64,000 bases of DNA from Parachlamydiales bacterium. Lineage in GTDB: Bacteria > Chlamydiota > Chlamydiia > Chlamydiales > SM23-39. The DNA lies in contig JAFGFA010000018.1 in NCBI GenBank assembly GCA_016931275.1, forward strand, positions 6,492-70,491, written 5' to 3'. The position numbers and the translations under genes are program-made. Shown piece after piece: positions 1,022-62,678 of the stretch. Numbering within the stretch: position 1 is the stretch's first letter; every line of letters begins with the position of its first letter. The notes beneath the pieces were generated by a model. That model did no database searches. It worked only from the letters and a program-made list of their open reading frames with translations, and was not told the origin of the DNA.

Positions 1022-2062
1022 TTAGAAATCTAATGCTAGTTTTACTGTAAGACCTTGTAACAATAGATCTGATGCACTTCCGTCAGTAGCTACTCCTATT
1101 AGATCTTTCAAAGAACGCATTTCGTTTTGATTCCAGAAAATTTGGAAATCATAAGATGCTGAAAGATCAATATGCCAGTCGCTATTTGAGAAGTATGTTC
1201 CCCAGCCTAGGCCAAGATCAAGTTCAAAGTTTGGAGTAATATAGCTAGGCTCATCTTGGAAATGAGTTGTACTTTCGCGACCTTTTACTTTAAAGTCTTG
1301 ATAATACAAGCCAGCAGCTGTATTTCCAAATACTCTGAATCCTTCTCCAATAAGCCAGTTTGTATTCAAACCTGCTCGTGGTCCTAACAACCAAGAATCA
1401 GAGGTGTATTTTATGTCTGTTGCAACTGCTGCAAGAGTAAGGTAATCGATTTTATATTTTTGATCGATCCAACCACCTCGTAGCCCTACGAATGGGAAAA
1501 ACGTAAGTTTAGTTCCTACATAGTGAGCTCTTCCCATAGTAAAATCTAGAAGATCTATGTAAGAATACCATTTAGCAGCTACAGAAGCAGAACTAGTTGG
1601 TGATATAGACCAAGTTGGTGTAATATCATCAGCTGAAGAGGTTTTATGATATTTATTAGTACCATGTACTCTTGTATATTCGAGCATCAAAGCCCAATTA
1701 TCATGGTCTAAATTCATTCCAGCAGCAACTTTAAATGCTGATTTGTAATCAAAGTCCATGTTAATTACTTTATGAGAATCAGAACCATCTATTCCTAATT
1801 CCAATCCTTTTTCTTTCATTTGCCAATAAAGATAGCTTACAGAAAGAAAAGCGTCCCAAGAACAATTTACATCAATTCTTGCTGGAGCATTATATGCACC
1901 CATCATTTGATGTTCTTGGACAGTATATCCTTGTTTATAATCATTAGGATTTTTTTTGCAATCAGAAGGACATTCACAGCCTTGATTGTTTTGCACAGCA
2001 AATGCTGAAAGAGCAATACAACTTGCTCCTAACAGCGATATCATTTTTTTGGTTAAAGACAT
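1022..2062 (-). CDS. MOMP-like / Lpg1974-family outer membrane beta-barrel porin
   Basis: Signal peptide (..ALSAFA), YNAPARIDV, YLYWQ, PFVGLRGGWIDQ, GPRAG, YDFQIFWNQN, C-terminal GLTVKLALDF ending in Phe; amphipathic beta strands. Confidence 0.8.
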   Translation of the reverse strand: MSLTKKMISLLGASCIALSAFAVQNNQGCECPSDCKKNPNDYKQGYTVQEHQMMGAYNAPARIDVNCSWDAFLSVSYLYWQMKEKGLELGIDGSDSHKVINMDFDYKSAFKVAAGMNLDHDNWALMLEYTRVHGTNKYHKTSSADDITPTWSISPTSSASVAAKWYSYIDLLDFTMGRAHYVGTKLTFFPFVGLRGGWIDQKYKIDYLTLAAVATDIKYTSDSWLLGPRAGLNTNWLIGEGFRVFGNTAAGLYYQDFKVKGRESTTHFQDEPSYITPNFELDLGLGWGTYFSNSDWHIDLSASYDFQIFWNQNEMRSLKDLIGVATDGSASDLLLQGLTVKLALDF

Positions 2063-43174: not shown

Positions 43175-46100
43175 TTATAATTTGTCTGTATCTTTTTTTT
43201 GTTTTCGATAAACAAACAGATAGTTTTTTCGGATCTCTGTTTGATCCGGCATGTAAAAGAGTGTTTTAAAGAAAAAGTCGTTGGCGAGAGAAAAGGAAGA
43301 GCTGTCTAATCCAGGCATAGCATAGGTCTTTGTTTCCTGAGAAGGCGTGGGCCTTCTATCGAAGATAATTCGGCCGTTCCAGATGATTAACATAGGAATA
43401 TTGGAGGCGAGGTAATGAACGGTATCATCGAGATCTGTTCCGCTGAAATCAGCCAGGTTCGTAGACCCCACAAAAATTCTATTGGCCGCATAGATTAAGA
43501 TAGGGGAATCATAACTGCCGACGTCTCCTCCCAAGGCATTGAATTCGGCATCTTCGACTGTTGTGATGGCTACAGGGGAGCCACTATTTAAAATCTCTTG
43601 TGTTGCCGTGAACTCAACAGTGTCCGCTGCAATCGTTCCTCCGAAAAAGATATTTTCGGCATCGACTTGCAATAGTTCCATGTTTCCGGCGTTACCGGCA
43701 ATTGTGTTTAGGTACACATTTTTTTGTGCCAGAATGTTGAAGATATTGGCATAAATAGCATCAGTGGTAACATTGTAGGCATTTTGTATCGAAAGGGAGT
43801 TCAAAGGGGAAAGGCTTCCGAGCGCAGATCCAAAGGTGATGTCGCCTGCCTTGCTGATGAGGGAGAGTTGGTAGGCTCCATCAATCGTATTATAAAAAGT
43901 CATGTCGGCTCCTACAGCTCCTGTAATAAAGCCGCTGTTATTTGTAAGAGTGATTGGTCCATAGAAGGAGATCGGCTGATTGTTGGTGTTTAAATTGCCT
44001 TCAAAGGAGACATTCCCCGTGCCATTTTGTGTAAAAGCTCCGTTGACAAGAAGGATTTTATTCCCGTTTGCGGTCCACGTGCCCGCATTGGTTACGATGA
44101 GAGGCCCTTGAGAGATAGTCCATAAGTTTTCTTGAGTGATGATATTTCCTGTCAGTTGAATTCCGTCTGTTCCTGTAGCTTTTAAGGAACCGTGAAATAT
44201 CGAGGTGTTTGTTCCCGCGGCCTGTATAACTGCTTCTGCAGTGATCGATTCCGTTTCGACATTGCTTGCGGAATTAATCAGGAATTTTTTAAGTTCTTCG
44301 GTAGAGCCGATGGTTTCGTTTAAGGTAATATCTCCTCCTGTCTGTAAGGTCAGTTGATAATTGCCGTCAACAGTATCGTTGAGGGTTATATTTTGATCTG
44401 CTTGAAGGGTCAGGTCTTCAACTAATATCAAGGAACTATCAAAGGAAATGTCTTCCCCTGTTTGTATGGATCCTCTAAGATAAGCTTCAGCAGTGCCATT
44501 TTGGATAAAACTTCCGGAAATGGAGGAGACAGAGTCGTTATTACAAAGGAGATGTCCCGAGTTAGTAAGGAGAACATTTCCCCCATTGGATGTTTCTAAA
44601 GCTCCATCATAGACAAAGATTTTTCCGATAAGATGGATCGCATTTCCTGCAGCATTGGTGTTCCATGTATCATTCCATATGATTTGTTCTGTAGAAGAAG
44701 CTACATAAATGGAAGAGGCGTTAATTGCTTGCGTGTTCATTGTATGGACGTTGTTGATGATCAGATCTCCTATTCGTTCCGTAGTGCCGACAGAGCTTGC
44801 GAAGGTAATATTTCCTCCTCCCGCTTGCAGTGTTAGATTTCCGCTGCCATTGACGGTGCTGTTGAAAGCGATGCTTTTTTCTGTAGCCGAGGTATCTATG
44901 AAAGGAGATCCGGAGAGGGTGACGGGTCCTTGAAATCTGACATTTTGTCCTGTGGTCAAAGATCCAGAAAAAGAAATATTTCCCGATTGAGTGAAGGCGC
45001 CAGAAGAGACAATAGTTCCGGAGACATTCGCAAGACCTGAAGCAGATAAAACAATAGATCCGTTCTCTGCAGTGGTAACATTGTTGGTGATGGTAAAATT
45101 AGTTCCCGTAAGATTGATCCCTAAAAATTTTGTGATGTCGAGATCTCCGTTAAAGGAAGTTGTTCCGCTACCCGCACTTTGGGTTAGCCCTCCTGCTGTA
45201 ATGGTTTGAGCGGAGACGTCTTGAGCATTAGTGATGGTCAGTTGATAAAGAGGATGGACGGATCCCACCAAGGCATTAAATAGGATATTTCCGGTTCCTG
45301 CCGTTAAGGTTAAGCTGTGCGTATAATCGCTATCGCTATCTAGGAGATCAGAAAAGACGATATTTCCTCCGGCAGTGCTCCCGGTAGAAAATGTTTTGGA
45401 AGAGGTAAGTTCCACAGGCTTTGAAAAAATTAAATCGGTATGATTGGTAGAAATATTTCCAGCGGCATAGATTTTTACGGAGGGGGTCAGAGTCAACATA
45501 TTAGAGTAAATGTCTTCTGAAAGATAGAGGTTGTTCCCGATTAAAGTGGTATGGGAAAATTCAGCATCGCCGCTCATGCCGATTTGTTGTACTTGAAGGT
45601 CGGCAGATCCTGCATCGATGATCAAGGTTCTTACATCGTTTGTCTCAGCATAGATGTTTTCAAGGGTGAGGCTTCCTCCGTCTGAATTGATGGTGAGATC
45701 GGTGTTGGTAGAGAGGTTGATCGATCCGCCGCCTGTAAAAAGGATTGGATTACCTGACGATGATACGGTGGTCAAGGCTCCTGCATCGAAGGCAAATTGT
45801 ACGCTTGTTGAATAATTTTGGGTATGGGCCTTATAACTAGTTCCGGAAAAATGAATTTGTCCGGTGGAAGTAATATCCGTAGTTCCCGTTATTCCGACTC
45901 CTCCGTCTCCGATATTGTTCAGCGAAATATCTCTTCCATCGATAGTCAGGCTAGTGAGGGCGCTGCTGCCGCCGATGATTTCTAAACAAGAGACATTGCC
46001 GGTTCCTGCATTGATCGTAAAGTTCTTTGCCCCATCGATCGTGTTGTTGAGAACGATATTTCCATTGCCGGTGCTAGTATCGAGAACTCCATCGGCAAGA

Positions 46101-52100: not shown

Positions 52101-55100
52101 AGAACGATGTTATGTCCTTGAGAAGTGATATCGCCGATGATGGTCGATCCGGAGCCATAGTGATAAATGATGACATCCGTTCCAATTTGTCTTAGTTCTC
52201 CAGAGATATTCATGATGTTGCCGACAGAACCGAGAATGCTTTCGTTAAGGGCATAGACAACAGAACCTCCTCCTGTAGTGGTGGTGTTCCCGTTGTGATA
52301 AAGATGTTCTCCCGTGATAGAAATTCCATCTACTCCCGAAGTATTGACATTTCCTATAAAGCTTGTAGTCCCCGTGCCGGCTAGTTGAGAGATAGAAAGA
52401 GCGGTGATGGATTTTGAGTCAAAATCTTTCACGGTGCTAATCGTCACATTGCCAAGACGGATACTAGAACCAAGATTGGAAGAACAGGTGATATCACTAG
52501 TTGCGCTGGCAGCAAGAGTTAAGTGTTCTTGTCCGATATTAGTACCATTGACGGTACCGCTGATTGTTAGGTCTCCTTCCCCGGAATTTAAGATAGCAGC
52601 AGCAGCGAGGGTGATGGGAGAGTCATCCACAAAGGAAAGAGGGGTATTGTTGGTTTGAATAGTGCCGGCTAAAACAATCGTTCCTGTTCCTCCACTATTG
52701 GTTTGAGTAAAGGCGCCATCGATTGAGACAGTCTTATCAGGGGTAAAGGTGAGAATGCCGCTATTTTGCAAGGAACAGGGACCGCTTGAAGCTGTAGTGA
52801 TATCATCTTCAAAGGTAATATTGACTCCTGTCAGAGTGATACCTCCAATAGCCGAAGTGGTTATCGAGCCGCGAAAATCAGAAGTGTTTGCTCCTGTTGT
52901 TTGCGTAAGAGAAGCGGCAGATATTGCTTCAGTCGTGACATTGTAAGCGTTTGTGATAATGAGAGCTCCGAGCGGTGTTGTGCTACCGATATTGCCTTCG
53001 AAGGATAGGTTTCCATTAGAGGATGTCCCAAGATCCAATGTTAGGTCTCCCGGACCATCGATTGTACTGAAAAAAGTGATTGGTTTATTGGCAGCGGCGG
53101 TAGATAGAGAAGGCGTTCCCGAGATAATAATAGGATTAAGAAAAAGTATTTCATCGGAAGCTGTTAGAGAAGAAGAGAGAGTGCAAGTTCCATTCCCGTT
53201 GATCGTAATGATGCCGTCGATAGAGGCCGTTGCGGTAGCTTGAAACTCGGCAGTTCCCGTATGGGTAACGGTCAAAGGGCCGGTGGTTGTTGTGATCGGT
53301 TGCTCAAAGGTGAAATTGGTCCCTTGGAGATTGATGCCAAGGGCTCCTGTCGTTGTCAAACTATCATGAAATGTTGTTGTTCCGGTGCCCCCGATTTGTT
53401 GGATGCTAGAAGCATACACTTTTTGTACGGAAGCGTTTAGAGTCTTATTGATATAGAATTTTGAGAGAGGAGTGATCGCTCCGATATCTCCAACTGTAAT
53501 ATTCCCAGCAGTCGCATCTAACTCAAGGGTAAAAGCACCATTTGTCGCTTCATTCAAGGTAATGTTTGCTCCGGTAAGTCCAGTATTTAGGATAACATTA
53601 CCGGTAAGGGTGATAGGGGAGGTAAAAGAGATCGGTTGGTTTGTTGTCGTGATATTATTGGCTAAAAGAACGGAACCTGTCCCATTTTGGACAAATGCGC
53701 CGCTTACGGAGATGTTACCGGCAGCAGAGCTGTCAAAAGTACCGCTATTCGTGATGGTCATTCCGCCACTGCCTGTGGTCGTGATCGCAGCGCTGCGTGT
53801 GATATTATTGCTTTGAATCGAGATGCCGTTAGATCCTATTGTAGCAACGGTTCCTTGTAATAAGGTCGTTCCAGTGCCTGCAAGCTGCTGGAAAGAAAGA
53901 GAAGATAGGGTAGATTGCACCGTGACATTTTGTGCGCTGTTGACAATCATATTGCCTAGAGGCGTATCGTGCCCTACGGCTCCTTGCAATAAGAGGTTTC
54001 CTGTGCCGGCTGTACAGGTGAATGTATAACCGCCATCAAGGGTACTAAGAAAACGAATATCCTGATTACCACCGCTTGTATCGAAACTTGAATTTCCCAC
54101 CAGAACACAAGGACTGGTAAAGGTGATAGATCCATTGCGGGCAATGATGTTAAAGAAGAGGTTGTTGGAGCCTGTTCCGTCTTGTAGATAGGATTGGTCG
54201 ACATCGACGGTAGTCCCTCCAAGTCCTGCCATGGTTCCGCTGTGGGTTACATGAATTGATCCCCCTCCCGTAACGAGCACATCAGCATAACGATAACAAT
54301 CATTGCCGACAAAAGTAATCCCATTGGAGCCGTTGATATCGATCGTTTCATAAAAGATCGTTTGTCCGTTTCCTGCCAATTGAGAGAAAGAAGCTGCAGT
54401 AATGGTATCATTAAAGATTAAATTGTCTGTCGATATAATTTCCAGATCTCCCAAGCGTGTAGTGGTTCCGATTGCTTGGAAAGATCCGCTGCCTAAGCCA
54501 AGCGTTAATGTCAGATCATAATTTCCGTCTATACTATTATAGAAATCGATGGGAGCATTATAGGATGAAGTGTCTAGAGCAACATTGTCTGTGAGAGTAA
54601 CGGGACCGTTGAAACCGATGTGGTTTGCGTTGATCTGGGTCCCTAAAGAAACTGCGCCTATTCCCAGTTGATGAAAGTAGCCACTGATAGAACAAATCGC
54701 TGCAGGAGGCAGTGTTAGCACTCCACTATTGCTGATTTCGAAGTTACCATTATTGGTTGTTGTGACGGTATCTTGAAAGGTAAAATTGGTGCCTGTCAGA
54801 GAAATGCCGTCGATGCCGCTTGTAAGTAATGGCCCTTGAAAGAGTGATGTTCCGGTCCCCGTGCTTTGTGTTAAAGAGGCAATAGTAAGAGCATTGGCTA
54901 CTGTCCAATTTAAGGCGGAGTTGATGGTCATATGGTTGAGAGGAGTTATAGCTCCAACAGCAGCTAAAAAAGAAATAGAACCGGTGTTAGCCGCAAGGGT
55001 AATGGAACGCGCATAAGCAACATCGCTATCGAGCGTATCGTCGAATGTGATGTCGCCTCCTGAGCTGGAAAGGGTGATGCTGTCGACGTTATTTCTGATA

Positions 55101-58100
55101 ACAGGTCTTGTAAAAGAGATGGGATTATTGACCGTAGAGATGCCTCCACCTAGGTAAATGGTGGATGTAAGGCCCGGTACAAGAGAGATTGCGTGGGTAT
55201 CGATATTCCCCATGAGATATAGATCGCCGCCGATGATTTCGACGAGAGAAAATTCATCGGGTAAAACGGTGCCGATGGAACCGACATGAACTGTTCCTGT
55301 ATCGGCATTGATGCGTAGGATTCTGTAGTCATTGGCAGGGTTGGAAAGAGCGAGCGTATCGCCAAGAGTGATAGTTCCTCCTGATGAGGTAATTGTGAGA
55401 TCGCTGCCGGCACCGAGTTGTATGGTTCCTGTAGTAAAGTCCATAGGATCATTAGAGGATGTGAAAGTAGTTAATGCTCCAGCATCCATATTGAAATTAG
55501 TGGCGGCAGCATAAGATTGTGTGTTAGCATGATATGTCGTTCCGGTAAAAAACATCTCATTGCTGGCATTAAGGGTTGTGGTTCCAGTAACCCCTGCACT
55601 TGCAGCTCCGATATCACCTACAGAAATATCGCTTCCTGAAATTGTAAGGGAAGCAAGAGGAGTAGAAGCTCCTATTGGCCCAGACAGGGTTACAGAAGCG
55701 CCATTGCCATTGGCAATATAGTTAAAGGTTCCGTCGATACTGTTTGATAGAGTGATGTCGCCAATGCCGGATGTGAGTTCCATGGTTATATCGTTTGTCA
55801 GAGTGATCGGAGAAGAAAAAGAGATCTCATCGCTATTACCGGTGATATCTGCTGCAAGAGAGTTTTGGCCCGATCCGTTTTGTATGAAGGCTCCTGAACT
55901 AACGATTTCTGCTGCTAGAGCTTGTGTGAAGAGGCCACTATTGGTGATCGTGACAGGACCGTTGTTTGTTGTAGTCACTGTGTTATTCATTGTGATCGCA
56001 TTTCCTGTAAAAGAAATGCCGTTGCTGCCCGTTGTTACTACTGTATTATTGAAAAGAGTGGTCCCCGTTCCCGCCGTTTGCGAAAAGGAAGAGGCATTGA
56101 TCGTTGTAGCGGTGACATTGTTGGCAGAGGCGATACTGAGGGCTCCCAAAGAAGAAATACTTCCGATAGGATTATGAAAGGTGATCGATCCGGTTCCCGC
56201 TGTTAGAGAAAGGTTTTGTGTGCCGTCGAGAGTGTTATAAAAATCGATATTGCCACCGCCGCTTCCTGTGCTTACAGAAGAAGTTCCTGCGATCGTGACA
56301 GGTCCGTTAAAAGATATATTGGCATTTTGCGTAGTGATGTTCGCCGCCAGCGATACGGCTCCGGATGTGGACTGGTTAAAGACGCCTCCTCCGACAAGGG
56401 AGACGTTGGTACCTGAAATAAAAGTGGCTGTGCCGGTATTGGCAAGTGTCAATGATCCTGCGGCGGCGGTTGTTACGGTATTGTTGAAAGTAAAGGCATT
56501 TCCTGTGAGCGAGATGCCGCCTACGGTAGATGTGCTTAAGGCTCCGAAAGATGAAGTTCCTGTTCCGGCTAGTTGAGAGATAGTTCCTGCAGTGATATTG
56601 TTGAAGCTGGCATTTTGGACACTGGAGACTGTAAGGGAGGTGAGAGCAGTAGTATTTCCGATTGCACCAGAAACGGAAATATCACCTGCACCTGCATTGA
56701 GAGTTAGTGTTCTTGCATTATTTATGGTGCCGGAGACTGTGATATCTCCGCCGGAAGTGGCGATGGTGATGTTATTATTGAGTACAATGTCGCCGGTTCC
56801 TGCGGTATTGGGATAGAGCATGACAGGTCCTCCGGCTGTCGTTATATTCCCTCCTAGGCTGATGCTTTGCGCTGATGTATAGATCCTGGAAAAATAGGTT
56901 CCGCTTGTAAAGATAGGCACATTTGAGAAGTGCTCCAGGCTGGGTAGATTAGCGCGCAGGATCAGAGCGGCTGAAGTGGTAAGGATTGCACTATCACTAT
57001 CTCCTGTAGCGCTGATATCAGGGCCAGTGATGTTGATGGTTCCCGTTGTGATAATGGTCCTTTGTGCTTCTACTTTTAAGGAAACACCGTTATAAGAACC
57101 AAATTGACAGCCACGGTTTGAGCTGATGATGGGGTCAAAGAAACTGATGAAATCACCGAGCTTACCGTCGGGTTTTAGCAGGGTAAAATCGCCGCCACTA
57201 TAGAAGTGGGCATCTGCTGAGATGGGATTTTCGCTGATAAATGTCATATTGCCGCCGGAAAAAAAGCCGGAGTTAGGATGAGACAGAGTTAAAATATCGA
57301 TGCAAGGGCTTTGAATGGTGCAGTTGCCTTTTGTCCAAATACGGCTTGATGTTTCCTTAGAATCTCTCACTTTGATTTTCTCTTGCGAGGAAAGGAATAG
57401 TTCTTTACCGGAGGATAAGGAGGAACTTTCGAGGAAAAGCGTTTTTTTTGCCTGGATGGTTAGAGTATCGTCTGCCTGTATCTGTCCGGAACTTTGCATG
57501 GAAGGAGCTTCAATTGCGATCTCTTTTCCTTGGATCGTTCCCTTATGGACTAGGTAAAACACTCCGTCTTTTTCTTCGAGGGCATTCGCAGGGGGCATTC
57601 CATCGGTGTTCACGACCATTTTAACAGCGGCTTTGGCGGCGGGTACTGAAATACACACAGCACCTCCTGCCGCTTCGATCATCCCAAAATTTTCGATCAA
57701 AGATTGTTCCAGCTCTCCTTCTGTTGTGAATTTCATTAAACCGTTGCCTAAAAAATCGATCGAGACTTTTTCTGCTGAGGCCAGGATGATTTTTTCGGCC
57801 TTGGTAAAAAGAGAACCTGTATTTTTAATATGGGGAGATAAAAGAGCAAGGCACCCATCATTGGACAATAAAGAACCTTCATTGACAATGGATCCGTTTT
57901 CTTTTCCTTTTTCTAGAAAAAAGTGAAAACGTCCTTCTAAAAAATCTTCGTTTTTAATGTTTAGCGTTGAGGCGATAAAGGATCCCGCATTGACTTGTGC
58001 GTTTTTCCCAAAATAAATTCCTTGAGGGTTGACGAGAAACAGACGGCCGTTGCTTTCCATATGGCCCTGGATTTCAGAAATGTTTTTTCCGATAACGCGA

Positions 58101-58342
58101 TTGAGGATGCAGGATTTGTCATCCGGTAAAGTAAATGTTATTTTTTCCCCTGCCCCGATAGAAAAGGTTTTATAGTCGATGATTGTTTTGTCAGTTGCCG
58201 AAACATGAAGTTGCTGGGGAGTAGAAAAGGAAAATTGGGCATCACCCGATACGATTTTTTCCCCTTTTGGCAGGGCAAAGAGAGAGGCCGTATAGCATAG
58301 ACAGCAACTCATGAAATATAAAAAAGAATATTTCTTGTTCAT
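43175..58342 (-). CDS. Giant filamentous haemagglutinin-like TpsA exoprotein (5055 aa)
   Basis: Signal peptide ending ASLFA|LP, TPS secretion domain (ILNRV, SNGRLFLVNPQGI, FIASTL), then ~4300 aa of T/G/S/N/I-rich beta repeats. ATG at 58342 overlaps the tpsB stop (TGATG). Confidence 0.93.
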   Translation of the reverse strand: MNKKYSFLYFMSCCLCYTASLFALPKGEKIVSGDAQFSFSTPQQLHVSATDKTIIDYKTFSIGAGEKITFTLPDDKSCILNRVIGKNISEIQGHMESNGRLFLVNPQGIYFGKNAQVNAGSFIASTLNIKNEDFLEGRFHFFLEKGKENGSIVNEGSLLSNDGCLALLSPHIKNTGSLFTKAEKIILASAEKVSIDFLGNGLMKFTTEGELEQSLIENFGMIEAAGGAVCISVPAAKAAVKMVVNTDGMPPANALEEKDGVFYLVHKGTIQGKEIAIEAPSMQSSGQIQADDTLTIQAKKTLFLESSSLSSGKELFLSSQEKIKVRDSKETSSRIWTKGNCTIQSPCIDILTLSHPNSGFFSGGNMTFISENPISADAHFYSGGDFTLLKPDGKLGDFISFFDPIISSNRGCQFGSYNGVSLKVEAQRTIITTGTINITGPDISATGDSDSAILTTSAALILRANLPSLEHFSNVPIFTSGTYFSRIYTSAQSISLGGNITTAGGPVMLYPNTAGTGDIVLNNNITIATSGGDITVSGTINNARTLTLNAGAGDISVSGAIGNTTALTSLTVSSVQNASFNNITAGTISQLAGTGTSSFGALSTSTVGGISLTGNAFTFNNTVTTAAAGSLTLANTGTATFISGTNVSLVGGGVFNQSTSGAVSLAANITTQNANISFNGPVTIAGTSSVSTGSGGGNIDFYNTLDGTQNLSLTAGTGSITFHNPIGSISSLGALSIASANNVTATTINASSFSQTAGTGTTLFNNTVVTTGSNGISFTGNAITMNNTVTTTNNGPVTITNSGLFTQALAAEIVSSGAFIQNGSGQNSLAADITGNSDEISFSSPITLTNDITMELTSGIGDITLSNSIDGTFNYIANGNGASVTLSGPIGASTPLASLTISGSDISVGDIGAASAGVTGTTTLNASNEMFFTGTTYHANTQSYAAATNFNMDAGALTTFTSSNDPMDFTTGTIQLGAGSDLTITSSGGTITLGDTLALSNPANDYRILRINADTGTVHVGSIGTVLPDEFSLVEIIGGDLYLMGNIDTHAISLVPGLTSTIYLGGGISTVNNPISFTRPVIRNNVDSITLSSSGGDITFDDTLDSDVAYARSITLAANTGSISFLAAVGAITPLNHMTINSALNWTVANALTIASLTQSTGTGTSLFQGPLLTSGIDGISLTGTNFTFQDTVTTTNNGNFEISNSGVLTLPPAAICSISGYFHQLGIGAVSLGTQINANHIGFNGPVTLTDNVALDTSSYNAPIDFYNSIDGNYDLTLTLGLGSGSFQAIGTTTRLGDLEIISTDNLIFNDTITAASFSQLAGNGQTIFYETIDINGSNGITFVGNDCYRYADVLVTGGGSIHVTHSGTMAGLGGTTVDVDQSYLQDGTGSNNLFFNIIARNGSITFTSPCVLVGNSSFDTSGGNQDIRFLSTLDGGYTFTCTAGTGNLLLQGAVGHDTPLGNMIVNSAQNVTVQSTLSSLSFQQLAGTGTTLLQGTVATIGSNGISIQSNNITRSAAITTTGSGGMTITNSGTFDSSAAGNISVSGAFVQNGTGSVLLANNITTTNQPISFTSPITLTGNVILNTGLTGANITLNEATNGAFTLELDATAGNITVGDIGAITPLSKFYINKTLNASVQKVYASSIQQIGGTGTTTFHDSLTTTGALGINLQGTNFTFEQPITTTTGPLTVTHTGTAEFQATATASIDGIITINGNGTCTLSSSLTASDEILFLNPIIISGTPSLSTAAANKPITFFSTIDGPGDLTLDLGTSSNGNLSFEGNIGSTTPLGALIITNAYNVTTEAISAASLTQTTGANTSDFRGSITTSAIGGITLTGVNITFEDDITTASSGPCSLQNSGILTFTPDKTVSIDGAFTQTNSGGTGTIVLAGTIQTNNTPLSFVDDSPITLAAAAILNSGEGDLTISGTVNGTNIGQEHLTLAASATSDITCSSNLGSSIRLGNVTISTVKDFDSKSITALSISQLAGTGTTSFIGNVNTSGVDGISITGEHLYHNGNTTTTGGGSVVYALNESILGSVGNIMNISGELRQIGTDVIIYHYGSGSTIIGDITSQGHNIVLTDTAAFTTQGNLTVYGDINSESGVPHNCLFSVGGNISFIGNIGQTSPLNIITVSDAINFTANKISAASLQIGTTTPISSITTFNDIVTTSDASGILIKSHDVNLNADITTSGGGSLTITNSNILTIDATAILSLDGPFVQNGGGENRLGSSITTNNQSISFASPLVLTAEPARLDTGTGSGDITINTLSGAYALNLRAGTGDIYFLDHVGLTNPLTGITIESTHNLTASSSIDIDGPLTLQNSTGTASFQNTLSTTTAGGISLTGIAITFADDVTTTGGGPIALSHSGLLTCASGISISSDSTFIETNLGATGTMTLGGSISTNNANLSISSPVILSNSATLSSGTGSGDILLSASIDATVAGTQRLTLASGLGNILATEPIGTTTRLGKLEISNAYNVTLQDITLASLSQLAGTGTSLFEGTIHTNTSQGIVLTGTNFTFSDYITTTNSGSMTVTNSGLLTRSGTFSTSIAGSFLQNGTGSITLGDTISAQTGISFTGPINLGQNSILQTTSGNITVNNTIDEAFSLTTTATSGTINFLNAIGGTSPLASFTTSASQITHQASLTTTGAIQHTGSVILGGDVSTTNSNVTVTGNVSISASDVEINTGTGVGNIAISGFLQGTVAGNCCTINAGTGNVSIGGTTGASIPLNDFSVTGHYISLNNVGSVSQGITGNITLSATDSIDFNGDVYNTTGTQNYTANNFFYFNKGALTTLRSNNTDITFTTGGIHLSANNHFTLQSNGGLITLTTLTVADDKVVNLIADASVGTISYVQIGTATNFLDNVLLKGATITPPEPPAPPPYTIIYANNWSYVSPSTIILTTDVHYDGTLTYDDPVILGATDLAFIWDGPTSGDLTFNNLLNSADGYVTNTTFSPGAGNNLVINSPIGAIDPLGSVTINDVTDVTINNDMQMGSFSQINGSGTTTINGDLTTTAVGGISIQTADIDLFGDLLTENSGPIVIDNSGLLQTPSCVTINSSGAFQQIGSGTVEICGTIITHDAEISFNSPVKLLNQLTLTSKDTSGGNISFSSTIKGSTDVTENLILTAGSGDITFLDTIGESLVPLYLGYLNIASAHDVSVEEIYTARFLQTSGTGTTSFNQAASFKGTSQGLSFTGNALTIDNTLTTTNEGPLLITNSGLLTLTSSADCTINGNFTQNGTGASSLAGAIAADGSISFATAATLTDAFALDTSSYDQTITFSQTLDGTVAGSENLTIDTGNGDLFLLGAVGQSTRLGILTITQASNVTASTMYAASIIQTNGSGTTTLSGSLNTLAGGISLNGTKLSLSGNMITTGSVSLTHTGDLIITGGGSTSIDGTFTESGGGTVRLGGSITTTNTNLTFNDPIVLTGTSYLSTGTGIGDISLATTLNGGYNLTLTAGTGDILFGGTIGNTVSLGALTIASVQDISYPIVKASSITQSLSSGTTIIGGTMTSSGLAGIALTGNIITQNASLITQNEGPITITNSGLLTIATNINSSGPFSQNGTGTVDLSSSLIAANDSISFDSPVTLTATSSVYTGSLGANILFDDTIDGTVGTENLTLTATSGSITCNGNIGATIPIGDFLISSAYNATFHDITASSLTQSINTGTTIFNGAVSSTNTVSLTGTNFTINNDFTVTSGDLNVSTSGIFSLTSAANLLISGNLEHTGTGSSSLNGIVVTGGYIDFNIPNTIISAGTANCSTAAANQPITFYGTVEGPGNLTLASGSANISFADTIGASTRLGTLTITNTGSLVSKNITAEAIVQSAGNAIFNGALNTNGVGGIDLNGTGFTFAGNVTTTGSGPCTITNAGTCSFAIGKNLSLSGAFTQDGTGPLSLGSNITTDNADIHIVQPTTLTALVSLSTGTGSGNVQFDSTINGNYNFSITAGTGNITATSPIGNITRLRDITVYSVTDLTIDAVSANSISQLQGSGISLINGNINTNGSNGIYIVGNNFIRSGDITTTNGGSITITNSGLITGTGLNTTSIDGYYIQNGTGPLDFGGTITAKLGISLLGPMTLLADGVLDTSTGNGNIVLNNTIDGAKNFTINAGTGNVSCLEIIGGSSALTSLTIDGRDISLNNIGDGGVGITGTTDITSTGQIHFSGTSYKAHTQNYSTSVQFAFDAGALTTVSSSGNPILFTGGGSINLSTNTDLTINSDGGSLTLENIYAETNDVRTLIIDAGSADLQVQQIGMSGDAEFSHTTLIGNNLYLSEDIYSNMLTLTPSVKIYAAGNISTNHTDLIFSKPVELTSSKTFSTGSTAGGNIVFSDLLDSDSDYTHSLTLTAGTGNILFNALVGSVHPLYQLTITNAQDVSAQTITAGGLTQSAGSGTTSFNGDLDITKFLGINLTGTNFTITNNVTTAENGSIVLSASGLANVSGTIVSSGAFTQSGNISFSGSLTTGQNVRFQGPVTLSGSPFIDTSATEKSIAFNSTVNGSGNLTLQAGGGNITFASSVGTTERIGDLIINNVHTMNTQAINASSIYVASSTEQIIWNDTWNTNAAGNAIHLIGKIFVYDGALETSNGGNVLLTNSGHLLCNNDSVSSISGSFIQNGTAEAYLRGSIQTGEDISFDSSLILVEDLTLQADQNITLNDTVDGNYQLTLQTGGDITLNETIGSTEELKKFLINSASNVETESITAEAVIQAAGTNTSIFHGSLKATGTDGIQLTGNIITQENLWTISQGPLIVTNAGTWTANGNKILLVNGAFTQNGTGNVSFEGNLNTNNQPISFYGPITLTNNSGFITGAVGADMTFYNTIDGAYQLSLISKAGDITFGSALGSLSPLNSLSIQNAYNVTTDAIYANIFNILAQKNVYLNTIAGNAGNMELLQVDAENIFFGGTIAADTVEFTATQEILNSGSPVAITTVEDAEFNALGGDVGSYDSPILIYAANRIFVGSTNLADFSGTDLDDTVHYLASNIPMLIIWNGRIIFDRRPTPSQETKTYAMPGLDSSSFSLANDFFFKTLFYMPDQTEIRKNYLFVYRKQKKDTDKL
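43871..56710 (-). repeat. Degenerate protein-level tandem repeat array inside tpsA
   Basis: About 21 units of ~160-175 aa (LTLxAGTGxIxF..IG...LxxLTI..A.NV..Q.AGTGTTxF..GIxLTG..TNSG..FxQNGxG..ISFxxP..TIDG) plus three ~235-aa variant units; counted by eye. Confidence 0.85.
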
Positions 58343-60000
58343 CAAAAAGCCCTGTCTGTAATTTTTATATAGAAAAATGCATCTCTTGAAAGGTCTCGAT
58401 GATTTAAAGGAAATCCGACTTCAAATGTGCCGGCAAGACCCCATGGGCCGTTGATTCTAACGCCAAATCCTGTACTCCATTGATAGGTATTTCCGTTGTC
58501 TTTAAAGAAAACGCTGCCTTGGTCCATGAAAAGAGAGAATTGCAGGATGTCTTTAATTTTTTTATTGCCCATTCCTGGAGGAGCAAAACGCCATTCCGCG
58601 TTGCAATAGTAGCCGCTGTCGCCCATGCCTGTAGCGAGAGGAAATCCTCGCACGGTATCTGCTCCTCCGATATAGATCTGTTCTGGAACGGTGAGTTTAT
58701 TGGGGCTCCATTGTCCTGAAGCATGTAACGAAAGGAACATGGAATGCGGTAAAGTTTTTAGATAATCATAATCGAGATTGAGTTTGAAAAAATTTCCTTG
58801 GGCTCCTGGACGTGAGCTGGAGGCCGTTGGGTTGTCGAGGCCATCTAAAAAGCCGGGTAAGCCTATTCCCATTTTTAATACGATATAGTTACGTCCGATC
58901 AGCGGGTTGTAATGATCAAAGATGGATCCAAGAGTGAGTACACGTAGTTTGTCGAAGGAGGTGAGCTGATGCAGCGTTAAATTTTTGATCTGCTTATAAT
59001 CAAAAGAGGCGTAGAGATCACAGTTCAGAAATTGTCTTCTGGTTAAGGCGTGCGAGGCCTTGATTGTTGCTATATGGGAGGAGCCTCTTAGTTTTAAATC
59101 TTTCATTTCTTGGATGTGGAATGTAGATGTTAGGTAGGCAAGTTCACAAAAGGTTCCCTTTACATTGACAGGAAAGCGATAGATAAGATCTGTAAAATAA
59201 AGGGCGCTTGCTGGAATGCCGATCGTTTGCGTGACGGAAAATTTGTCGCCGTCTGTAAAGAGTCTGGAATCTAGTCTGGCTCCTATACGAATGTTAGGAG
59301 TCAGCCATCGTCCATAGTTGTTGCCATTAATATATAAGTGCGTCGGAGTTTTGTCTTGTACTTGGATGGTCAGATCGACTGTTCCAAGTTCCTTGCCTTT
59401 TATAAAGATGGCTCCTGCCTGAAGATCACTATTCTCATTGAGCAATAATAAGGTGCGGAGCAATTGGTGGTAGTTAACGGCTTTGTTTTGCAAAGGGGTA
59501 AAATAACGAAGGATGAACTTTTCTTTATAATGCTTATTTCCCTCGATTGTGACTTGTCCTAGTTTTCCTTCGACAATCTCAATAGTGATTACTCCATCTG
59601 TAATAGTTTGCGGGGGAGGGAAGGCTCTTGCCAGAAAAAATCCCTTTTCTGCATAAAAATTTTCAATGCTATGACAGATGTCATAGATATCGCAAAGAGA
59701 AAGAGAGCAATGCAATCTGTTTTCAATCTGTTTGAGGATTGCAGTAGAGGAAAGGGCTTCGTTGTTTTTTAGACGTATTTCACGAATGTAAACTTTAAGT
59801 CCTTCAGGCATAGAAAGCCTTTCTTCAGGAATATCGATTTCGATTTGGGGAATTTTTCTATCCGGCTTTAGAGGTTCTGTTTCATATTCCTTTTCAAGTT
59901 GTCGTTCGATGACTCCGCTTGAGGGCACAGGAGGAGCCGTAGCAAAGAGAGTTCCCCAGAACAAGGGGAAAAAAACACAAAGCTGAATATATTTGTTCAT
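58342..60000 (-). CDS. TpsB / ShlB-FhaC-HecB family two-partner secretion transporter
   Basis: Signal peptide, POTRA (FYAEKGFFLARAFPPPQ..G.I.IEIVEG), NNYG, EQIYIGGADTVRGF (L6 loop), FMDQG, C-terminal Phe. Confidence 0.93.
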   Translation of the reverse strand: MNKYIQLCVFFPLFWGTLFATAPPVPSSGVIERQLEKEYETEPLKPDRKIPQIEIDIPEERLSMPEGLKVYIREIRLKNNEALSSTAILKQIENRLHCSLSLCDIYDICHSIENFYAEKGFFLARAFPPPQTITDGVITIEIVEGKLGQVTIEGNKHYKEKFILRYFTPLQNKAVNYHQLLRTLLLLNENSDLQAGAIFIKGKELGTVDLTIQVQDKTPTHLYINGNNYGRWLTPNIRIGARLDSRLFTDGDKFSVTQTIGIPASALYFTDLIYRFPVNVKGTFCELAYLTSTFHIQEMKDLKLRGSSHIATIKASHALTRRQFLNCDLYASFDYKQIKNLTLHQLTSFDKLRVLTLGSIFDHYNPLIGRNYIVLKMGIGLPGFLDGLDNPTASSSRPGAQGNFFKLNLDYDYLKTLPHSMFLSLHASGQWSPNKLTVPEQIYIGGADTVRGFPLATGMGDSGYYCNAEWRFAPPGMGNKKIKDILQFSLFMDQGSVFFKDNGNTYQWSTGFGVRINGPWGLAGTFEVGFPLNHRDLSRDAFFYIKITDRAF

Positions 60001-60009
60001 AATTGATTC

Positions 60010-60037
60010 TATATAAATTTTTTCTTGATATTGTCAA
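60010..60037 (-). promoter_or_regulatory. Candidate sigma66 promoter of tpsBA (near-leaderless)
   Basis: Perfect TTGACA (60037-60032), N16, TATATA (60015-60010); ATG 9 bp downstream and no SD sequence. Confidence 0.35.
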
Positions 60038-60180
60038 TATATAGTGTGTTTTTTGCGTTTGGGGGTTTTTTAATTACAATTTTAAAAAACTTTATTCTTG
60101 ATGATTGTATGATCAACAGAAAAAAAGAGACTAGGGTTCAAAGGAAAGGGTTATGCGTTATTTTTTGTTTCGAGAATTGT

Positions 60181-60921
60181 TTATAAAGACATCAGATAAA
60201 GAAGAATCGATCCGGCGGCGGCAACATTAAGAGATTCGATATGTGCAATGGGAATAGTAATTGGTGTGGCAATTTTTTGTGCCCATTTCCGAGTTCCACT
60301 CGATTCATGGCTAAGAATGAGAAAATAAGGGGGAGAAAAGACTTTTATGGTCTCTATGCTTGTTCCTTTTAGATCGGCTAAAAATCCTTGAAAAGATTTT
60401 TTCTGTATCCATGCGATAATGGCTGGTTCTTCCATAAAAAACAGGGGTAAATGAAAGGTAGCTCCTTTGGCCGCTCTTAGGGCTTTATCGTTAAAAGGGT
60501 CGACTGTTTTTGGGGGAAGTATGACTCCATCCCAGCCAAAAGCAAGAGCGCTGCGAAGAAGGGTTCCTAAATTTCCCGGATCTGTCAAGTTATCAATAAT
60601 AAGCAGTTTCTCTTTTTTTTCTAAAGAAGAGGTGGCAGGAAAATCGACAAGAGCGGCATAGCCATCGGGAGCCTGAACCCCAGTGATTTTATGCAAGACT
60701 TCCTCTGAGACTATATACGTTGTCGAAGCGATTTTTTCATGTTTTGCATAGGCTTTTTCGGACAGAAACAGGATTTTTATCCGGGGAAAAAGATCTTGGA
60801 TCATTTTTTGTCCCGAAATCAAAAGCTCTTTTTTTTCATACCGGTATTTTTTTTGAGTGCGTAGCTTAAAAATTTCTTTTACAATCGGATGTTGTAAACT
60901 GGTGATCTTTTTTGGTACCAT
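60181..60921 (-). CDS. SpoU/TrmH family RNA methyltransferase
   Basis: ITSLQHP, DPGNLGTLLRSA, KALRAAKGA, HESSG, ESLNVAAAGSILLY. Start taken at MVPKK. Confidence 0.9.
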   Translation of the reverse strand: MVPKKITSLQHPIVKEIFKLRTQKKYRYEKKELLISGQKMIQDLFPRIKILFLSEKAYAKHEKIASTTYIVSEEVLHKITGVQAPDGYAALVDFPATSSLEKKEKLLIIDNLTDPGNLGTLLRSALAFGWDGVILPPKTVDPFNDKALRAAKGATFHLPLFFMEEPAIIAWIQKKSFQGFLADLKGTSIETIKVFSPPYFLILSHESSGTRKWAQKIATPITIPIAHIESLNVAAAGSILLYLMSL

Positions 60922-60953
60922 GCGCTTAAGGGGATTGGAGGGAGTTGTATCGT

Positions 60954-62678
60954 ATGAAATTAAAAGGCAAAACGACAATACGGAAAATAAGAGGAACGAT
61001 TGCTTTGCGGGTATTTTGGGTCATATTCATATTAATCCTCATGCCTCTGTTTATCTTCTATATACTAGAATATCACAGAGAATACCATACGAAAAAAGCA
61101 GATTTTTTTAAAACGTTACAAATATTAGGGGAAAGTCGAAAGGATAGTATTGTTGCCCATATGAAGCGACAGATCTATTATTTTTTACGCCTGGCGCCGA
61201 CCCAGCCTCTGCCGGAAATTCAGAGAATATTTGATTTTGTAGAAGCCTCAAAATTGACAAAACAAAACAATCGGCTGATTTGCACGGATTCTTCGAATCC
61301 TGATAATATTGGTAAAGATTATTCGGAATTTTTGCCGGCCTTTGCCCATCATCGTTACCACATCATTTATGGTCCTTATCTCTATCTAACGCAAGTTTTG
61401 TCCGATGATACTCTTTTGATCGGAAGTAACAATCTTTCGGAGTTCCTTGGAACCGTGGATGCGATGTACCCAATAGATATGTCCCTGTTCTCTAAAGGAA
61501 AAATTTTTATTTCTTCTAACGCCTCTTATATAGGAACTAAGATTCATCTGACCCCGGCAAAAGGGATCTCCGATGGTTATGTTTTTAACGGACAAAATAT
61601 GGCAGCGGTTATTCCGATGAAAGATTTGGGGATTTCGCTTTTGGTAGATATTGAAGAAGAATACATCAAAAGCCTTCATTGGCAATATTATTTTCTTCGA
61701 TTGCTCAAGATGTTTTTATTTATCACAATCATTGGTGGCGGCAGCGCTTGGATTTTGATCCGTAAATTGAGCGCACCTCTAAAGAATCTTTTGAATGTGA
61801 TGGATCGTGTAAAAGAGGGAGATGTTTCTCAATGTTATGTTCCTGCAGTTATGGGATATGAGATTAACATGTTAGGGACTTCCTTTAATGAGATGATTCA
61901 ATCGGTGCTAAAACATCAAAAGATTGCGGAACAAGAACGCGTTGCTAAAGAAAAATTGGCTCAAGAGCTTAAAATAGGCCACGATATTCAAATGAGCCTT
62001 TTTCCTTCTGCAATGCCTCACATAAAAGGATTGGATATTACTTCGGGGTATGTGCCTGCAAAAGAAGTCGGAGGCGATTTTTATGATATTTTTTACTATA
62101 ATGATCGGGTGTATTTCATCATTGCCGATGTGTGCGGCAAGGGAATTTCTGCCTGTTTGTATGCCTTAGGGGTGAGAAGCCTTTTTCGATCTTTTTTTAT
62201 CCTAGGAAAGCCGATTTCCGAGGTCGTTTCCCATGTCAACGAGGTGTTCTTTCGGGATGTGGAAGCTTCTTTAACGTTTGTGACTGCCTGGGTGGGAGAG
62301 TTGCATCTCGACACGAAAGAACTTACGTATTGTTCTCTGGGACATTTTCCGGCTCTTTTGCGTCAAAAAGGGGGAGAGATTCAGGAGTTGCAAACAGATG
62401 GGATTGCCATCGGTGTTTCTGAATCTATTGAAGTCTTTGAAAAGAAAATAACGTTGCAGAGAGAGGATATTCTTCTTCTCTATACAGACGGGATCATTGA
62501 AGCGCATGATCGGGACCATCATGGCTATGGCATAGAAAAATTAAAAACCTTTCTGCAGAAAATAGTACAGTTACCTTCGAAGGAGATGGTTTCCCTTTTA
62601 TTACAGGATGTAAAAGCATTTTCCGTTTTGGAAGAACAGGCAGATGATATGACGGCGGTGATTATCCGTCTTTTATAG
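60954..62678 (+). CDS. rsbU: Membrane sensor + HAMP + PP2C (SpoIIE) phosphatase, RsbU-like
   Basis: Two TMs flanking a periplasmic domain, HAMP (EINMLGTSFNEM), EVGGDFYD, IADVCGKG, YTDGIIEA, QADDMT. Confidence 0.88.
   Translation: MKLKGKTTIRKIRGTIALRVFWVIFILILMPLFIFYILEYHREYHTKKADFFKTLQILGESRKDSIVAHMKRQIYYFLRLAPTQPLPEIQRIFDFVEASKLTKQNNRLICTDSSNPDNIGKDYSEFLPAFAHHRYHIIYGPYLYLTQVLSDDTLLIGSNNLSEFLGTVDAMYPIDMSLFSKGKIFISSNASYIGTKIHLTPAKGISDGYVFNGQNMAAVIPMKDLGISLLVDIEEEYIKSLHWQYYFLRLLKMFLFITIIGGGSAWILIRKLSAPLKNLLNVMDRVKEGDVSQCYVPAVMGYEINMLGTSFNEMIQSVLKHQKIAEQERVAKEKLAQELKIGHDIQMSLFPSAMPHIKGLDITSGYVPAKEVGGDFYDIFYYNDRVYFIIADVCGKGISACLYALGVRSLFRSFFILGKPISEVVSHVNEVFFRDVEASLTFVTAWVGELHLDTKELTYCSLGHFPALLRQKGGEIQELQTDGIAIGVSESIEVFEKKITLQREDILLLYTDGIIEAHDRDHHGYGIEKLKTFLQKIVQLPSKEMVSLLLQDVKAFSVLEEQADDMTAVIIRLL

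What the first reader, a model, noticed from the sequence alone, without database searches (positions are those of the whole stretch)
43175..60000. Giant two-partner (type Vb) secretion locus in a chlamydial genome
Seen: tpsB (POTRA + barrel, VRGF loop) coupled by TGATG to a 15.2-kb tpsA, together ~17 kb or a quarter of the window, flanked by housekeeping genes eno and trmH. There is no downstream immunity gene, no VENN or toxin tip and no CHAT domain. Established: Chlamydiaceae rely on type Va Pmp autotransporters, and TpsA beta-helices of this kind act as long adhesins. Inference: a very long surface filament for host or particle attachment in an environmental chlamydia, possibly a little-described adhesin system.
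Basis: partly seen in the sequence, partly recalled or inferred. Interest (0 to 1): 0.72.

Follow-up and report, generated by a model that had tools for sequence, protein, structure and literature searches.

The report
Giant pore-anchored chlamydial surface rod
An uncultured chlamydia devotes 1.4% of its small genome to a two-partner secretion pair whose 5,000-residue protein is predicted to form a roughly 110-nm rod, predicted to stay tethered by a conserved, cysteine-free tail inside its own export pore, and likely used for attachment; proteins with this export domain occur in 43% of the chlamydial genomes sampled, but in none from the family that is likely the human and animal pathogens.

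Summary
Confirmed: tpsB (552 aa; POTRA_2, ShlB, VRGF) overlaps tpsA (5,055 aa from the ATG of TGATG; TPS domain), between trmH and eno, with no toxin, CHAT or immunity gene. TpsA is a confidently predicted beta-helix (pLDDT 98; nearest fold EtpA) of 21 diverged ~164-aa repeats and three ~240-aa spacers, about 100-120 nm long. It is not unique. TPS domains occur in 129 of 300 chlamydial genomes, in 0 of 29 from the likely Chlamydiaceae. Close orthologs reach 4,749-10,777 aa and have moved between families (AU p=0.0002). New here: a family-specific C-terminal module ends in an aromatic tail predicted to dock in the TpsB barrel and on POTRA2 (score 0.66 against best control 0.00). That would be an anchor like those of HMW1, HxuA or CdrA, but without the periplasmic cysteine hook. 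Adhesion is inferred, not shown. The genome has no autotransporter, but it does have a second, split TPS pair. Prior mention found: one sentence for Rhabdochlamydia helvetica. The scan's own notes held no look-alike. Verdict: new variant of a known system.

The parts
58342..60000 (-). tpsB, 552-aa outer-membrane transporter (signal peptide, N-terminal plug-helix region, POTRA domains, Omp85-type barrel)
   Evidence: Pfam ShlB, POTRA_2, POTRA and Omp85 over cut-off; profile hits CdiB and FhaC in the PDB
58642..58653 (-). VRGF motif of barrel loop 6 (residues 450-453)
   Evidence: Sequence; (V/I)RG(F/Y) in all 39 chlamydial TpsBs aligned
58340..58344 (-). TGATG stop/start overlap coupling tpsB to tpsA
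   Evidence: similar overlaps in several orthologous loci
43175..58342 (-). tpsA, 5,055 aa from ATG (mature chain ~513 kDa, pI 4.2; T/G/S/I/N-rich)
58274..58342 (-). Likely Sec signal peptide, cleavage after L-F-A (residue 24, TTG numbering); mature chain starts LP as in most orthologs
   Evidence: Sequence inspection and ortholog N-termini; no signal-peptide predictor was run
57578..58207 (-). TPS secretion domain (residues 47-256), EtpA/HMW1/HxuA type, with NPQG motif
   Evidence: Pfam PF05860, TIGR01901; PDB: EtpA E 2e-40, HMW1 6e-25, HxuA 6e-21
55730..56713 (-). Repeat block 1: two ~164-aa beta-helix units (residues 545-872)
55010..55729 (-). Spacer module B1 (~240 aa, residues 873-1112)
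50531..55009 (-). Repeat block 2: nine units (residues 1113-2605)
49493..50227 (-). Spacer module B2 (residues 2707-2951), with a proline-rich insert at 49694-49720 (possible kink)
46031..49489 (-). Repeat block 3: seven units (residues 2953-4105); three of them modelled as a continuous beta-helix
45323..46030 (-). Spacer module B3 (residues 4106-4341)
43727..45322 (-). Repeat block 4: three units plus a partial one (residues 4342-4873)
43343..43726 (-). Conserved terminal beta-helix cap (residues 4874-5001), ending in a hairpin that carries a Cys pair in most orthologs but not here
43178..43342 (-). C-terminal tail (residues 5002-5056), low-confidence alone; short linker, then the conserved aromatic motif
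43247..43291 (-). Residues 5019-5033 (core LANDFFF), predicted to dock in the TpsB barrel lumen
43205..43222 (-). Residues 5042-5047 (YLFVYR), inferred to lie on POTRA2 in the periplasm
   Evidence: one search lists 176-181 of the fragment and TpsB 177-200 among confident interface residues; their pairing is my reading
60181..60978 (-). trmH/SpoU-family methyltransferase, upstream flank (in relatives: trmH-rsgA-eno)
41691..42980 (-). eno, downstream flank

Best explanation
This is an intact two-partner (type Vb) secretion pair whose 5,055-residue TpsA is predicted to fold outside the cell into a 100-120 nm beta-helical rod, is predicted to stay tethered by its last ~40 residues inside the TpsB barrel, and likely serves as a long-reach adhesin for host cells or particles. 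Steps: (1) Sec export and signal cleavage after residue 24 (inferred from sequence). (2) The TPS domain engages the POTRA domains of the co-translated TpsB and the chain threads N-terminus first (established for the family; the domains are shown here). (3) The chain folds at the surface into a continuous beta-helix, about 8 rungs or 3.8 nm per 164-aa repeat (predicted). (4) Secretion stops at the terminal cap: the linker and aromatic LANDFFF motif bind conserved lumen residues, and the final YLFVYR strand binds POTRA2 in the periplasm, so the N-terminal end points outward (predicted). (5) The rod binds multivalently along its flat T/S/N-rich faces or at its distal end (inferred by analogy with EtpA; ligand unknown). 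The family tunes reach by duplicating repeats and ~1,400-1,950-aa blocks (4,749-10,777 aa among close orthologs) and spreads laterally between chlamydial families.
For: Domains. Model of three repeats: pLDDT 97.7, pTM 0.91, all beta; best structural match EtpA, Z 18.4, rmsd 8.8, 432 aligned, tied with Vag8 (18.1) and close to HxuA (17.0). A profile of the C-terminal region hits 224 clusters at E<=0.001; it ends within 60 residues of the C-terminus in 145 of 164 strong hits. The strict tail motif is present in 29 of 38 family proteins of 2,500 aa or more. Complex prediction for TpsB with the last 151 residues scored 0.66, best of 3 controls 0.00. That mark was reached by 116 of 157 solved complexes and 2 of 215 mismatched pairs; the counts hold only roughly because my own alignments were used. 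The runs agree in at least 41% of contacts and partner pLDDT is at least 64. Contacts fall on alternating lumen-facing residues that run from the outer to the periplasmic side (my reading of barrel topology). They are more conserved than the rest of the barrel: mean 0.83 vs 0.73; 59% vs 35% of columns at 90% or more. C-terminal retention in the TpsB pore is established for HMW1/HxuA (PMC5422565, passages) and CdrA (PMC7616799, passages). G000 (99% complete) shows no autotransporter, so the Pmp-type adhesins were not found. It keeps T3SS and NTTs, signs of host dependence.
Against: No ligand, no tip domain and no binding motif were identified; adhesion rests on analogy. The anchor is a model only: it could reflect likeness to solved TpsB structures with a plug helix in the pore, or a transient secretion intermediate. 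Lumen residues may be conserved for translocation itself. The closest characterized relative, EtpA, is released rather than anchored. The strict tail motif is missing from 83 of 164 family hits, which include short paralogs with a different tail and fragments. Autotransporters and TPS systems co-occur in most genomes of the TPS-rich families, so TpsA does not generally replace Pmps.
Confidence: 0.62

Rival explanations
1. TpsA is fully secreted (or cleaved off) and acts as a bridging or matrix protein like EtpA; the tail is only a folding or secretion-pausing signal.
For: The TPS domain and repeat fold are nearest to EtpA, which is secreted and bridges flagella to glycans (PMC10284417, abstract and passages). 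G000 lacks the Cys pair that most orthologs carry.
Against: Confident predicted docking of the tail in the barrel. Tail retained in 29 of 38 giant family members. No flagellin in G000, so EtpA-style flagellar bridging is not available. Releasing a 0.5-MDa protein is costly for a 1.2-Mb genome (inference).
Confidence: 0.15
2. The anchored rod is a structural spacer or shield rather than a receptor-binding adhesin: it protects the extracellular stage, sets spacing to the inclusion membrane, or aggregates cells.
For: Uniform, acidic, repeat-only rod with no recognizable tip. Length varies about 2.3-fold among complete close orthologs by block duplication, as for a ruler.
Against: Patchy, laterally mobile distribution fits an interaction trait better than core envelope structure. 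Characterized toxin-less TpsAs are mostly adhesins (PMC5422565, table passage).
Confidence: 0.15
3. Nutrient capture of the HxuA type (heme or metal from a host protein), the label given to the R. helvetica TPS operon.
For: The TPS domain matches HxuA (E 6e-21). HxuA is C-terminally anchored. PMC6490308 annotates a chlamydial TPS pair as huxA/huxB-like, at 24.7% identity.
Against: No TonB-dependent receptor found in G000 (control rang in 3 of 14 genomes). Sequence similarity is limited to the shared TPS domain, and EtpA scores far better. Five thousand residues are unnecessary for this job.
Confidence: 0.04
4. Contact-dependent toxin or effector delivery (CDI-, ShlA- or CHAT-type).
For: Same secretion class and size range as CdiA. 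The repeat is shared with cyanobacterial TPS-CHAT proteins.
Against: No toxin, pre-toxin, CHAT or Fil_haemagg family hit. The C-terminus is conserved, not polymorphic. No small downstream gene here, and downstream neighbours of orthologs vary and often lie on the opposite strand.
Confidence: 0.04

Closest known systems
EtpA/EtpB of enterotoxigenic E. coli
   Same: Same TPS-domain subtype (best PDB sequence hit, E 2e-40), tpsB-tpsA pair, long fused beta-helix repeats (228 aa in EtpA, PMC10284417), best fold match for the repeats, no toxin tip.
   Different: About three times longer (orthologs up to six times). 164-aa units at only 24-46% mutual identity. Predicted C-terminal anchor, whereas EtpA is secreted. 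No HMW1C-type glycosyltransferase gene in the locus and no flagellin in the genome.
HMW1/HMW1B and HxuA/HxuB of Haemophilus influenzae; CdrA/CdrB of Pseudomonas aeruginosa
   Same: C-terminus held in the TpsB pore with the N-terminus distal (PMC5422565, PMC7616799 passages); predicted here.
   Different: Those anchors use a periplasmic disulfide loop or cysteine hook. The last Cys in this TpsA is residue 4601, 455 residues from the end. In orthologs the Cys pair sits in the terminal hairpin before the linker, predicted on the outer side. The predicted anchor is an aromatic peptide bound to the lumen plus POTRA2.
FHA/FhaC (Bordetella) and CdiA/CdiB
   Same: Type Vb, very large beta-helical stalk; TpsB profile hits FhaC and CdiB structures.
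   Different: Different TPS subtype (no FHA hit). No Fil_haemagg repeats, VENN, toxin or immunity gene. Only ~55 residues follow the beta-helix, so there is no large prodomain.
TPS operon RhT_01577/01578 of Rhabdochlamydia helvetica (PMC6490308)
   Same: A chlamydial tpsA/tpsB pair, so type Vb in chlamydiae has been noted.
   Different: One sentence and two table rows, labelled heme transport by weak similarity. No analysis of size, repeats, anchor or distribution. Whether it belongs to this subfamily was not tested.
Cyanobacterial and planctomycete giant TPS / TPS-CHAT proteins (e.g. Synechococcus sp. RS9909, Coleofasciculus)
   Same: They share the ~164-aa repeat (22 near-full units in the Synechococcus protein).
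   Different: They lack the chlamydial C-terminal module and some end in CHAT.
Pmp autotransporters (type Va) of Chlamydiaceae
   Same: Beta-helical surface proteins used for adhesion (recalled).
   Different: Separate transporter, 16-strand Omp85 class, roughly 3-5 times longer. No autotransporter barrel found in G000.

Membership tests
Two-partner secretion (type Vb) | TpsB with POTRA domains and Omp85-type barrel | tested here: met
   Pfam ShlB, POTRA_2 over cut-off; CdiB/FhaC hits
Two-partner secretion (type Vb) | VRG(Y/F) motif in loop 6 | tested here: met
   Residues 450-453
Two-partner secretion (type Vb) | TpsA with signal peptide and N-terminal TPS domain | tested here: met
   PF05860, TIGR01901; signal peptide judged by eye
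Two-partner secretion (type Vb) | Beta-helical passenger | tested here: met
   Predicted: pLDDT 97.7, EtpA Z 18.4; 3 of 21 repeats modelled
Two-partner secretion (type Vb) | Adjacent, co-oriented genes | tested here: met
   TGATG overlap
Two-partner secretion (type Vb) | Actual TpsB-dependent secretion | not testable with these tools
   Needs expression
EtpA/HMW1/HxuA subgroup | TPS-domain subtype | tested here: met
   All 5 PDB hits are EtpA, HMW1-type adhesin or HxuA
HMW1/HxuA/CdrA cysteine-anchored adhesins | C-terminal disulfide loop or cysteine hook | tested here: not met
   No Cys after residue 4601
HMW1/HxuA/CdrA cysteine-anchored adhesins | C-terminus retained in the TpsB pore | tested here: inconclusive
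   Supported by a model only
HMW1/EtpA glycosylated adhesins | HMW1C-type glycosyltransferase | tested here: inconclusive
   None in the locus; PF18071 gave no hit in G000 but rang in no control either
HxuABC heme uptake | TonB-dependent receptor | tested here: not met
   PF00593: 0 matches in G000, 99% complete; control 3 of 14
CDI (CdiBAI) | VENN-type pre-toxin motif and variable toxin tip | tested here: not met
CDI (CdiBAI) | Downstream immunity gene | tested here: not met
TPS-CHAT proteins | C-terminal CHAT domain | tested here: not met
   No hit; the model detects CHAT in a cyanobacterial relative
Adhesin (functional class) | Binding to cells, glycans or surfaces | not testable with these tools
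   No ligand data

The most novel reading that the evidence does not exclude
The Simkania/Rhabdochlamydia/Anoxychlamydia side of the phylum uses an overlooked, laterally traded family of giant TpsA rods (up to 10,777 aa, ~250 nm) as long-range host-capture filaments. They are held on the cell by a new kind of type Vb anchor: a cysteine-free aromatic tail that plugs the TpsB lumen and locks onto POTRA2. The rods would then be direct baits for finding the unknown hosts of anaerobic sediment chlamydiae.
Probability: 0.4. Interest if true: 0.75.

Novelty: new variant of a known kind. Interest (0 to 1): 0.58.

Why it matters
Chlamydial attachment is understood almost only from the pathogens' Pmp/OmcB proteins (own knowledge). 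For most environmental lineages, above all the anaerobic sediment ones, even the host is unknown (10.1101/577767, passages). A secretion class found in 43% of sampled genomes, sharply split by family, gives a concrete candidate for how these lineages reach their hosts, plus a soluble bait to find them. For secretion biology, the predicted tail-in-lumen anchor offers residue-level, testable contacts for how a TpsA C-terminus is held without a cysteine hook. The secretion class itself is textbook, and nothing here is experimentally shown.

Tried and rejected
Expression: no RNA holder listed, and two RNA runs of the same study laid nothing on the locus; no evidence either way. Named-genome scan with the single TPS domain: 5 loci only, all distant (three Betaproteobacteria-type Methyloversatilis/unclassified records, one Gallionellaceae, one Nitrospirales), so handles could not be tied to named taxa and no donor was identified. 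Foldseek gave no match at E<=0.001 for either model. The PDB sequence search with the repeat profile gave 0 hits. The C-terminal module has no convincing Pfam family and its Atlas hits were all at or below 0.80 (run on a homologue); these blanks do not prove a new fold. Its cap is a plain beta-helix (best Z 11.1). Promoter and terminator scans: nothing above chance. Recent foreign origin by base composition: rejected, GC3 z=1.8 and fourfold-site GC z=0.5 against 504 genes; the high GC comes from amino-acid usage. 'TpsA replaces Pmps across the phylum': rejected, since autotransporters occur in 37 of 46, 25 of 26 and 58 of 62 genomes of the three TPS-rich families. 'tpsBA insertion destroyed rsgA': not supported; no remnant was found, and G267 has trmH directly next to eno with no rsgA. 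Tail/lumen co-variation between long- and short-TpsA clades is one phylogenetic event and was not counted. My first reading of the C15 hit as BamA was wrong; it is a second TpsB. The first regex counts mis-anchored some hits and were replaced. The careful 39-row tree did not finish; only quick trees were used. N-X-S/T sequons: 134 vs ~113 expected, uninformative.
Full report
Observation. The window holds two co-oriented minus-strand ORFs, 552 aa (58342-60000) and 5,056 aa (43175-58345; 5,055 from the ATG at 58342). They are joined by a TGATG stop/start overlap. The small one passes Pfam ShlB, POTRA_2, POTRA and Omp85 and has VRGF at 450-453. The large one passes Pfam TPS (residues 47-256) and TIGR01901, and matches nothing else in Pfam or NCBIfam at E<=0.01. 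Flanks are a SpoU/TrmH methyltransferase and enolase. A 19.6-kb contig of a sediment-metagenome run, possibly the source sample and so not independent, matches 41500-60130 without a difference. The pair is 1.39% of a 1.21-Mb genome that is 99% complete.

The organism. G000 has SctV and three full nucleotide transporters, an [FeFe] hydrogenase, and no match to the autotransporter barrel, flagellin or TonB-dependent receptor families (controls rang). Nearest homologs carry source names such as Parachlamydiales, Chlamydiales, Rhabdochlamydiaceae and Simkania; a few TpsB records are labelled Verrucomicrobia or Anaplasmataceae. [FeFe] hydrogenases in chlamydiae are reported for Anoxychlamydiales (family SM23-39), MCF-E and some Simkaniaceae (PMC8242063, passages).

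Anatomy of TpsA. After a probable signal peptide (cleavage after residue 24, by eye) comes a TPS domain of the EtpA/HMW1/HxuA type (all 5 PDB hits; EtpA E 2e-40). A profile built from 14 of the protein's own units finds 21 full ~164-aa repeats (97-187 bits) and 4 partial ones. The 14 seed units are 35% identical on average (24-46%), so the expansion is old. The repeats fall in blocks of 2, 9, 7 and 3, separated by three copies of a ~240-aa module; the second copy carries a proline-rich insert. Three consecutive repeats, folded with an 80-row alignment, give an all-beta solenoid at pLDDT 97.7, pTM 0.91. Its best matches are EtpA (Z 18.4, rmsd 8.8, 432 aligned), Vag8 (18.1), HxuA (17.0) and HMW1 (16.4); Foldseek found nothing at E<=0.001. 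Counting strands in the model gives about 8 rungs per repeat. With the usual 0.48 nm per rung (own knowledge), the chain comes to roughly 100-120 nm.

The family. With TpsB as query, 94 of 300 scored genomes of the phylum match at E<=1e-15. By my count from the table, 33 (G000 included) match at E<=1e-80 and 14 at 47% identity or more. This is a floor: the query missed G000's own second TpsB. The Pfam TPS model hits 129 of 300 genomes: f1 (own family) 33/46, f8 19/26, f9 42/62, f14 7/7, f30 8/11, but f4 0/29, f3 0/18 and f6 1/32. Family f4 has 1.0-1.3-Mb genomes with many autotransporters, so I infer it is Chlamydiaceae. Of the 13 closest orthologs, 6 have a complete partner: 4,749, 4,769, 6,232, 6,579, 9,950 and 10,777 aa, counted from the first possible start. 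The other 7 run off their contigs. More distant TpsBs pair with TpsAs of 642-5,058 aa. Length grows by adding repeats and whole blocks: the 10,777-aa protein has 49 near-full units and 6 spacer modules. The 14 closest TpsBs form one branch (support 100) that mixes six families, and monophyly of the seven f1 members is rejected (p-AU 0.0002; quick tree, 18 of the 39 rows). Neighbouring genes differ from genome to genome. Lateral spread within the phylum is the simplest reading; hidden paralogy with loss is not excluded. In the own family eno lies next to rsgA in 30 of 30 fetched loci and trmH-rsgA-eno is seen in 27 of 30. rsgA is found in 54 of 60 relatives but not in G000, where tpsBA fills that slot. 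G267 has trmH directly beside eno, so rsgA loss may predate the insertion. The 164-aa repeat also occurs in cyanobacterial and planctomycete giants; no donor is established.

The C-terminal module. All close orthologs end alike: a beta-helix cap, a hairpin usually carrying a Cys pair, a proline-rich linker, then a tail with an aromatic core (LANDFFF here) and a final aromatic/basic strand. A profile of this region hits 224 clusters among 1.84 billion representatives. It lies within 60 residues of the C-terminus in 145 of 164 strong hits, and it is absent from the non-chlamydial repeat relatives listed. Among those 164, the strict tail pattern is in 81 and the Cys pair in 93; among the 38 of 2,500 aa or more, 29 and 28. 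G000 has the tail but not the cysteines. Alone, the last 190 residues fold as a beta-helix to about residue 5001, followed by a low-confidence tail. Folded with TpsB, the last 151 residues score 0.66 against 0.00 for the best of three controls. This mark was reached by 116 of 157 solved complexes and 2 of 215 mismatched pairs, counts that hold only roughly with my own alignments; runs share at least 41% of contacts and partner pLDDT is at least 64. Confident contacts involve TpsA 5019-5033 and 5042-5047, and TpsB residues 223-229, 238-242, 255-259, 269-273, 515-525 and 546-550 in an alternating, lumen-facing pattern, plus 177-200 in POTRA2. These lumen positions are more conserved than the rest of the barrel (0.83 vs 0.73), though translocation alone could explain that. 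The pass may come from likeness to solved TpsB structures; my PDB sequence search listed CdiB, FhaC, BamA and POTRA fragments, judged by titles only. The model supports binding; it does not show it.

Mechanism. Shown: gene anatomy, domains, repeats, conservation, distribution. Established for the family: Sec export, TPS-POTRA recognition, folding at the surface (PMC6555100, passages). Predicted: the beta-helix rod and the tail-in-pore anchor with the N-terminus outward. Inferred: adhesion to a host cell or particle, by analogy with EtpA, whose repeats are presumed to bind glycans (PMC10284417, passages). Known anchored TpsAs (HMW1, HxuA, CdrA) use a periplasmic disulfide loop or cysteine hook (PMC5422565; PMC7616799; passages). 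Here there is no Cys in the last 455 residues, so the anchor chemistry would differ. Rivals are a released bridging protein (0.15), a structural spacer or shield (0.15), heme capture (0.04) and toxin delivery (0.04).

Against my reading. No ligand or tip domain was found. EtpA is released. Half of the family hits lack the strict tail pattern. TPS and autotransporters usually co-occur, so this is not a general Pmp substitute. There is no expression evidence.

Literature. Nine full-text searches found no paper that analyses chlamydial type Vb systems. The one mention is a sentence and two supplement rows on a huxA/huxB-like operon in R. helvetica (PMC6490308; passage and supplement search). Term searches for two-partner, hemagglutinin and type V terms were blank in the main text of PMC2811131, PMC9816063, PMC8242063, PMC5826181, PMC9666466 and PMC11070183. 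They were also blank in the held supplements of PMC9816063 (1 file) and PMC8242063 (one picture-only file not searched). 10.1101/031039 mentions only T5aSS for Chlamydiae in the passages seen. Subscription papers were not searched. The scan's own notes showed TPS findings in other phyla only and no sequence look-alike.

Verdict. A real, intact member of type Vb secretion, EtpA/HMW1 subtype. It is a new variant through its chlamydial family, extreme and modular length, and predicted cysteine-free anchor. Interest 0.58.

Noticed in passing
G000:C17:34713-38273 (L001 6714-10274) and G000:C15:19215-20942 (L112 7216-8943): A second TPS system split over two contigs: a 1,186-aa TpsA with a different C-terminus and a lone 575-aa TpsB. 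Homologs of both sit side by side in G300, directly behind a tpsB-tpsA pair related to the one studied here.
   Followed up: partly
window 42981-60180: tpsBA occupies the slot of rsgA in the conserved trmH-rsgA-eno cluster; rsgA was not found in G000 nor in 6 of 60 relatives. No terminator was found before eno, so eno may be read through from tpsBA.
   Followed up: yes
L044/L056 (G147), L049 (G193), L047/L051 (G300): Tandem arrays: two ~5,000-aa tpsAs behind one tpsB in G147 (the first interrupted by an assembly gap), and several shorter TpsA-like ORFs behind one tpsB in G193. G193:C4 also has a 10,234-aa TPS frame.
   Followed up: partly
L055/L043 (G258): The longest ortholog, 10,777 aa, is in the only TPS-positive genome of 32 in family f6, a likely recent lateral gain.
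   Followed up: partly
L052/L032 (G110): In this complete genome tpsBA lies ~12 kb from trmH-rsgA-eno, beside a transposase-like and a Fic-like gene (labels recalled, not tested): same neighbourhood, different insertion site.
   Followed up: no
window 60032-60037 (-): A perfect TTGACA 31 bases upstream of the tpsB ATG, without a canonical -10 at 16-18 nt spacing; a very short leader or a non-standard promoter is possible.
   Followed up: partly
P0159, P0162, P0164, P0167: The unnamed ~164-aa beta-helix repeat is shared with giant proteins of Synechococcus RS9909, Coleofasciculus (TPS-CHAT) and planctomycetes; it has no Pfam model.
   Followed up: partly
L057, L060-L063, L046, L068: Short (640-1,150 aa) TpsAs of family f9 end in a different tail that keeps only the final aromatic strand; their TpsBs differ at several predicted lumen contacts.
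   Followed up: partly
window 11963-14068 (+) and 1022-2062 (-): A YjbH-family outer-membrane protein and a Legionella-OMP-like (MOMP-like) porin.
   Followed up: no
L110 (G079:C4:19759-21018): The enolase match contains one TAG and one TAA inside: broken gene or assembly error.
   Followed up: no
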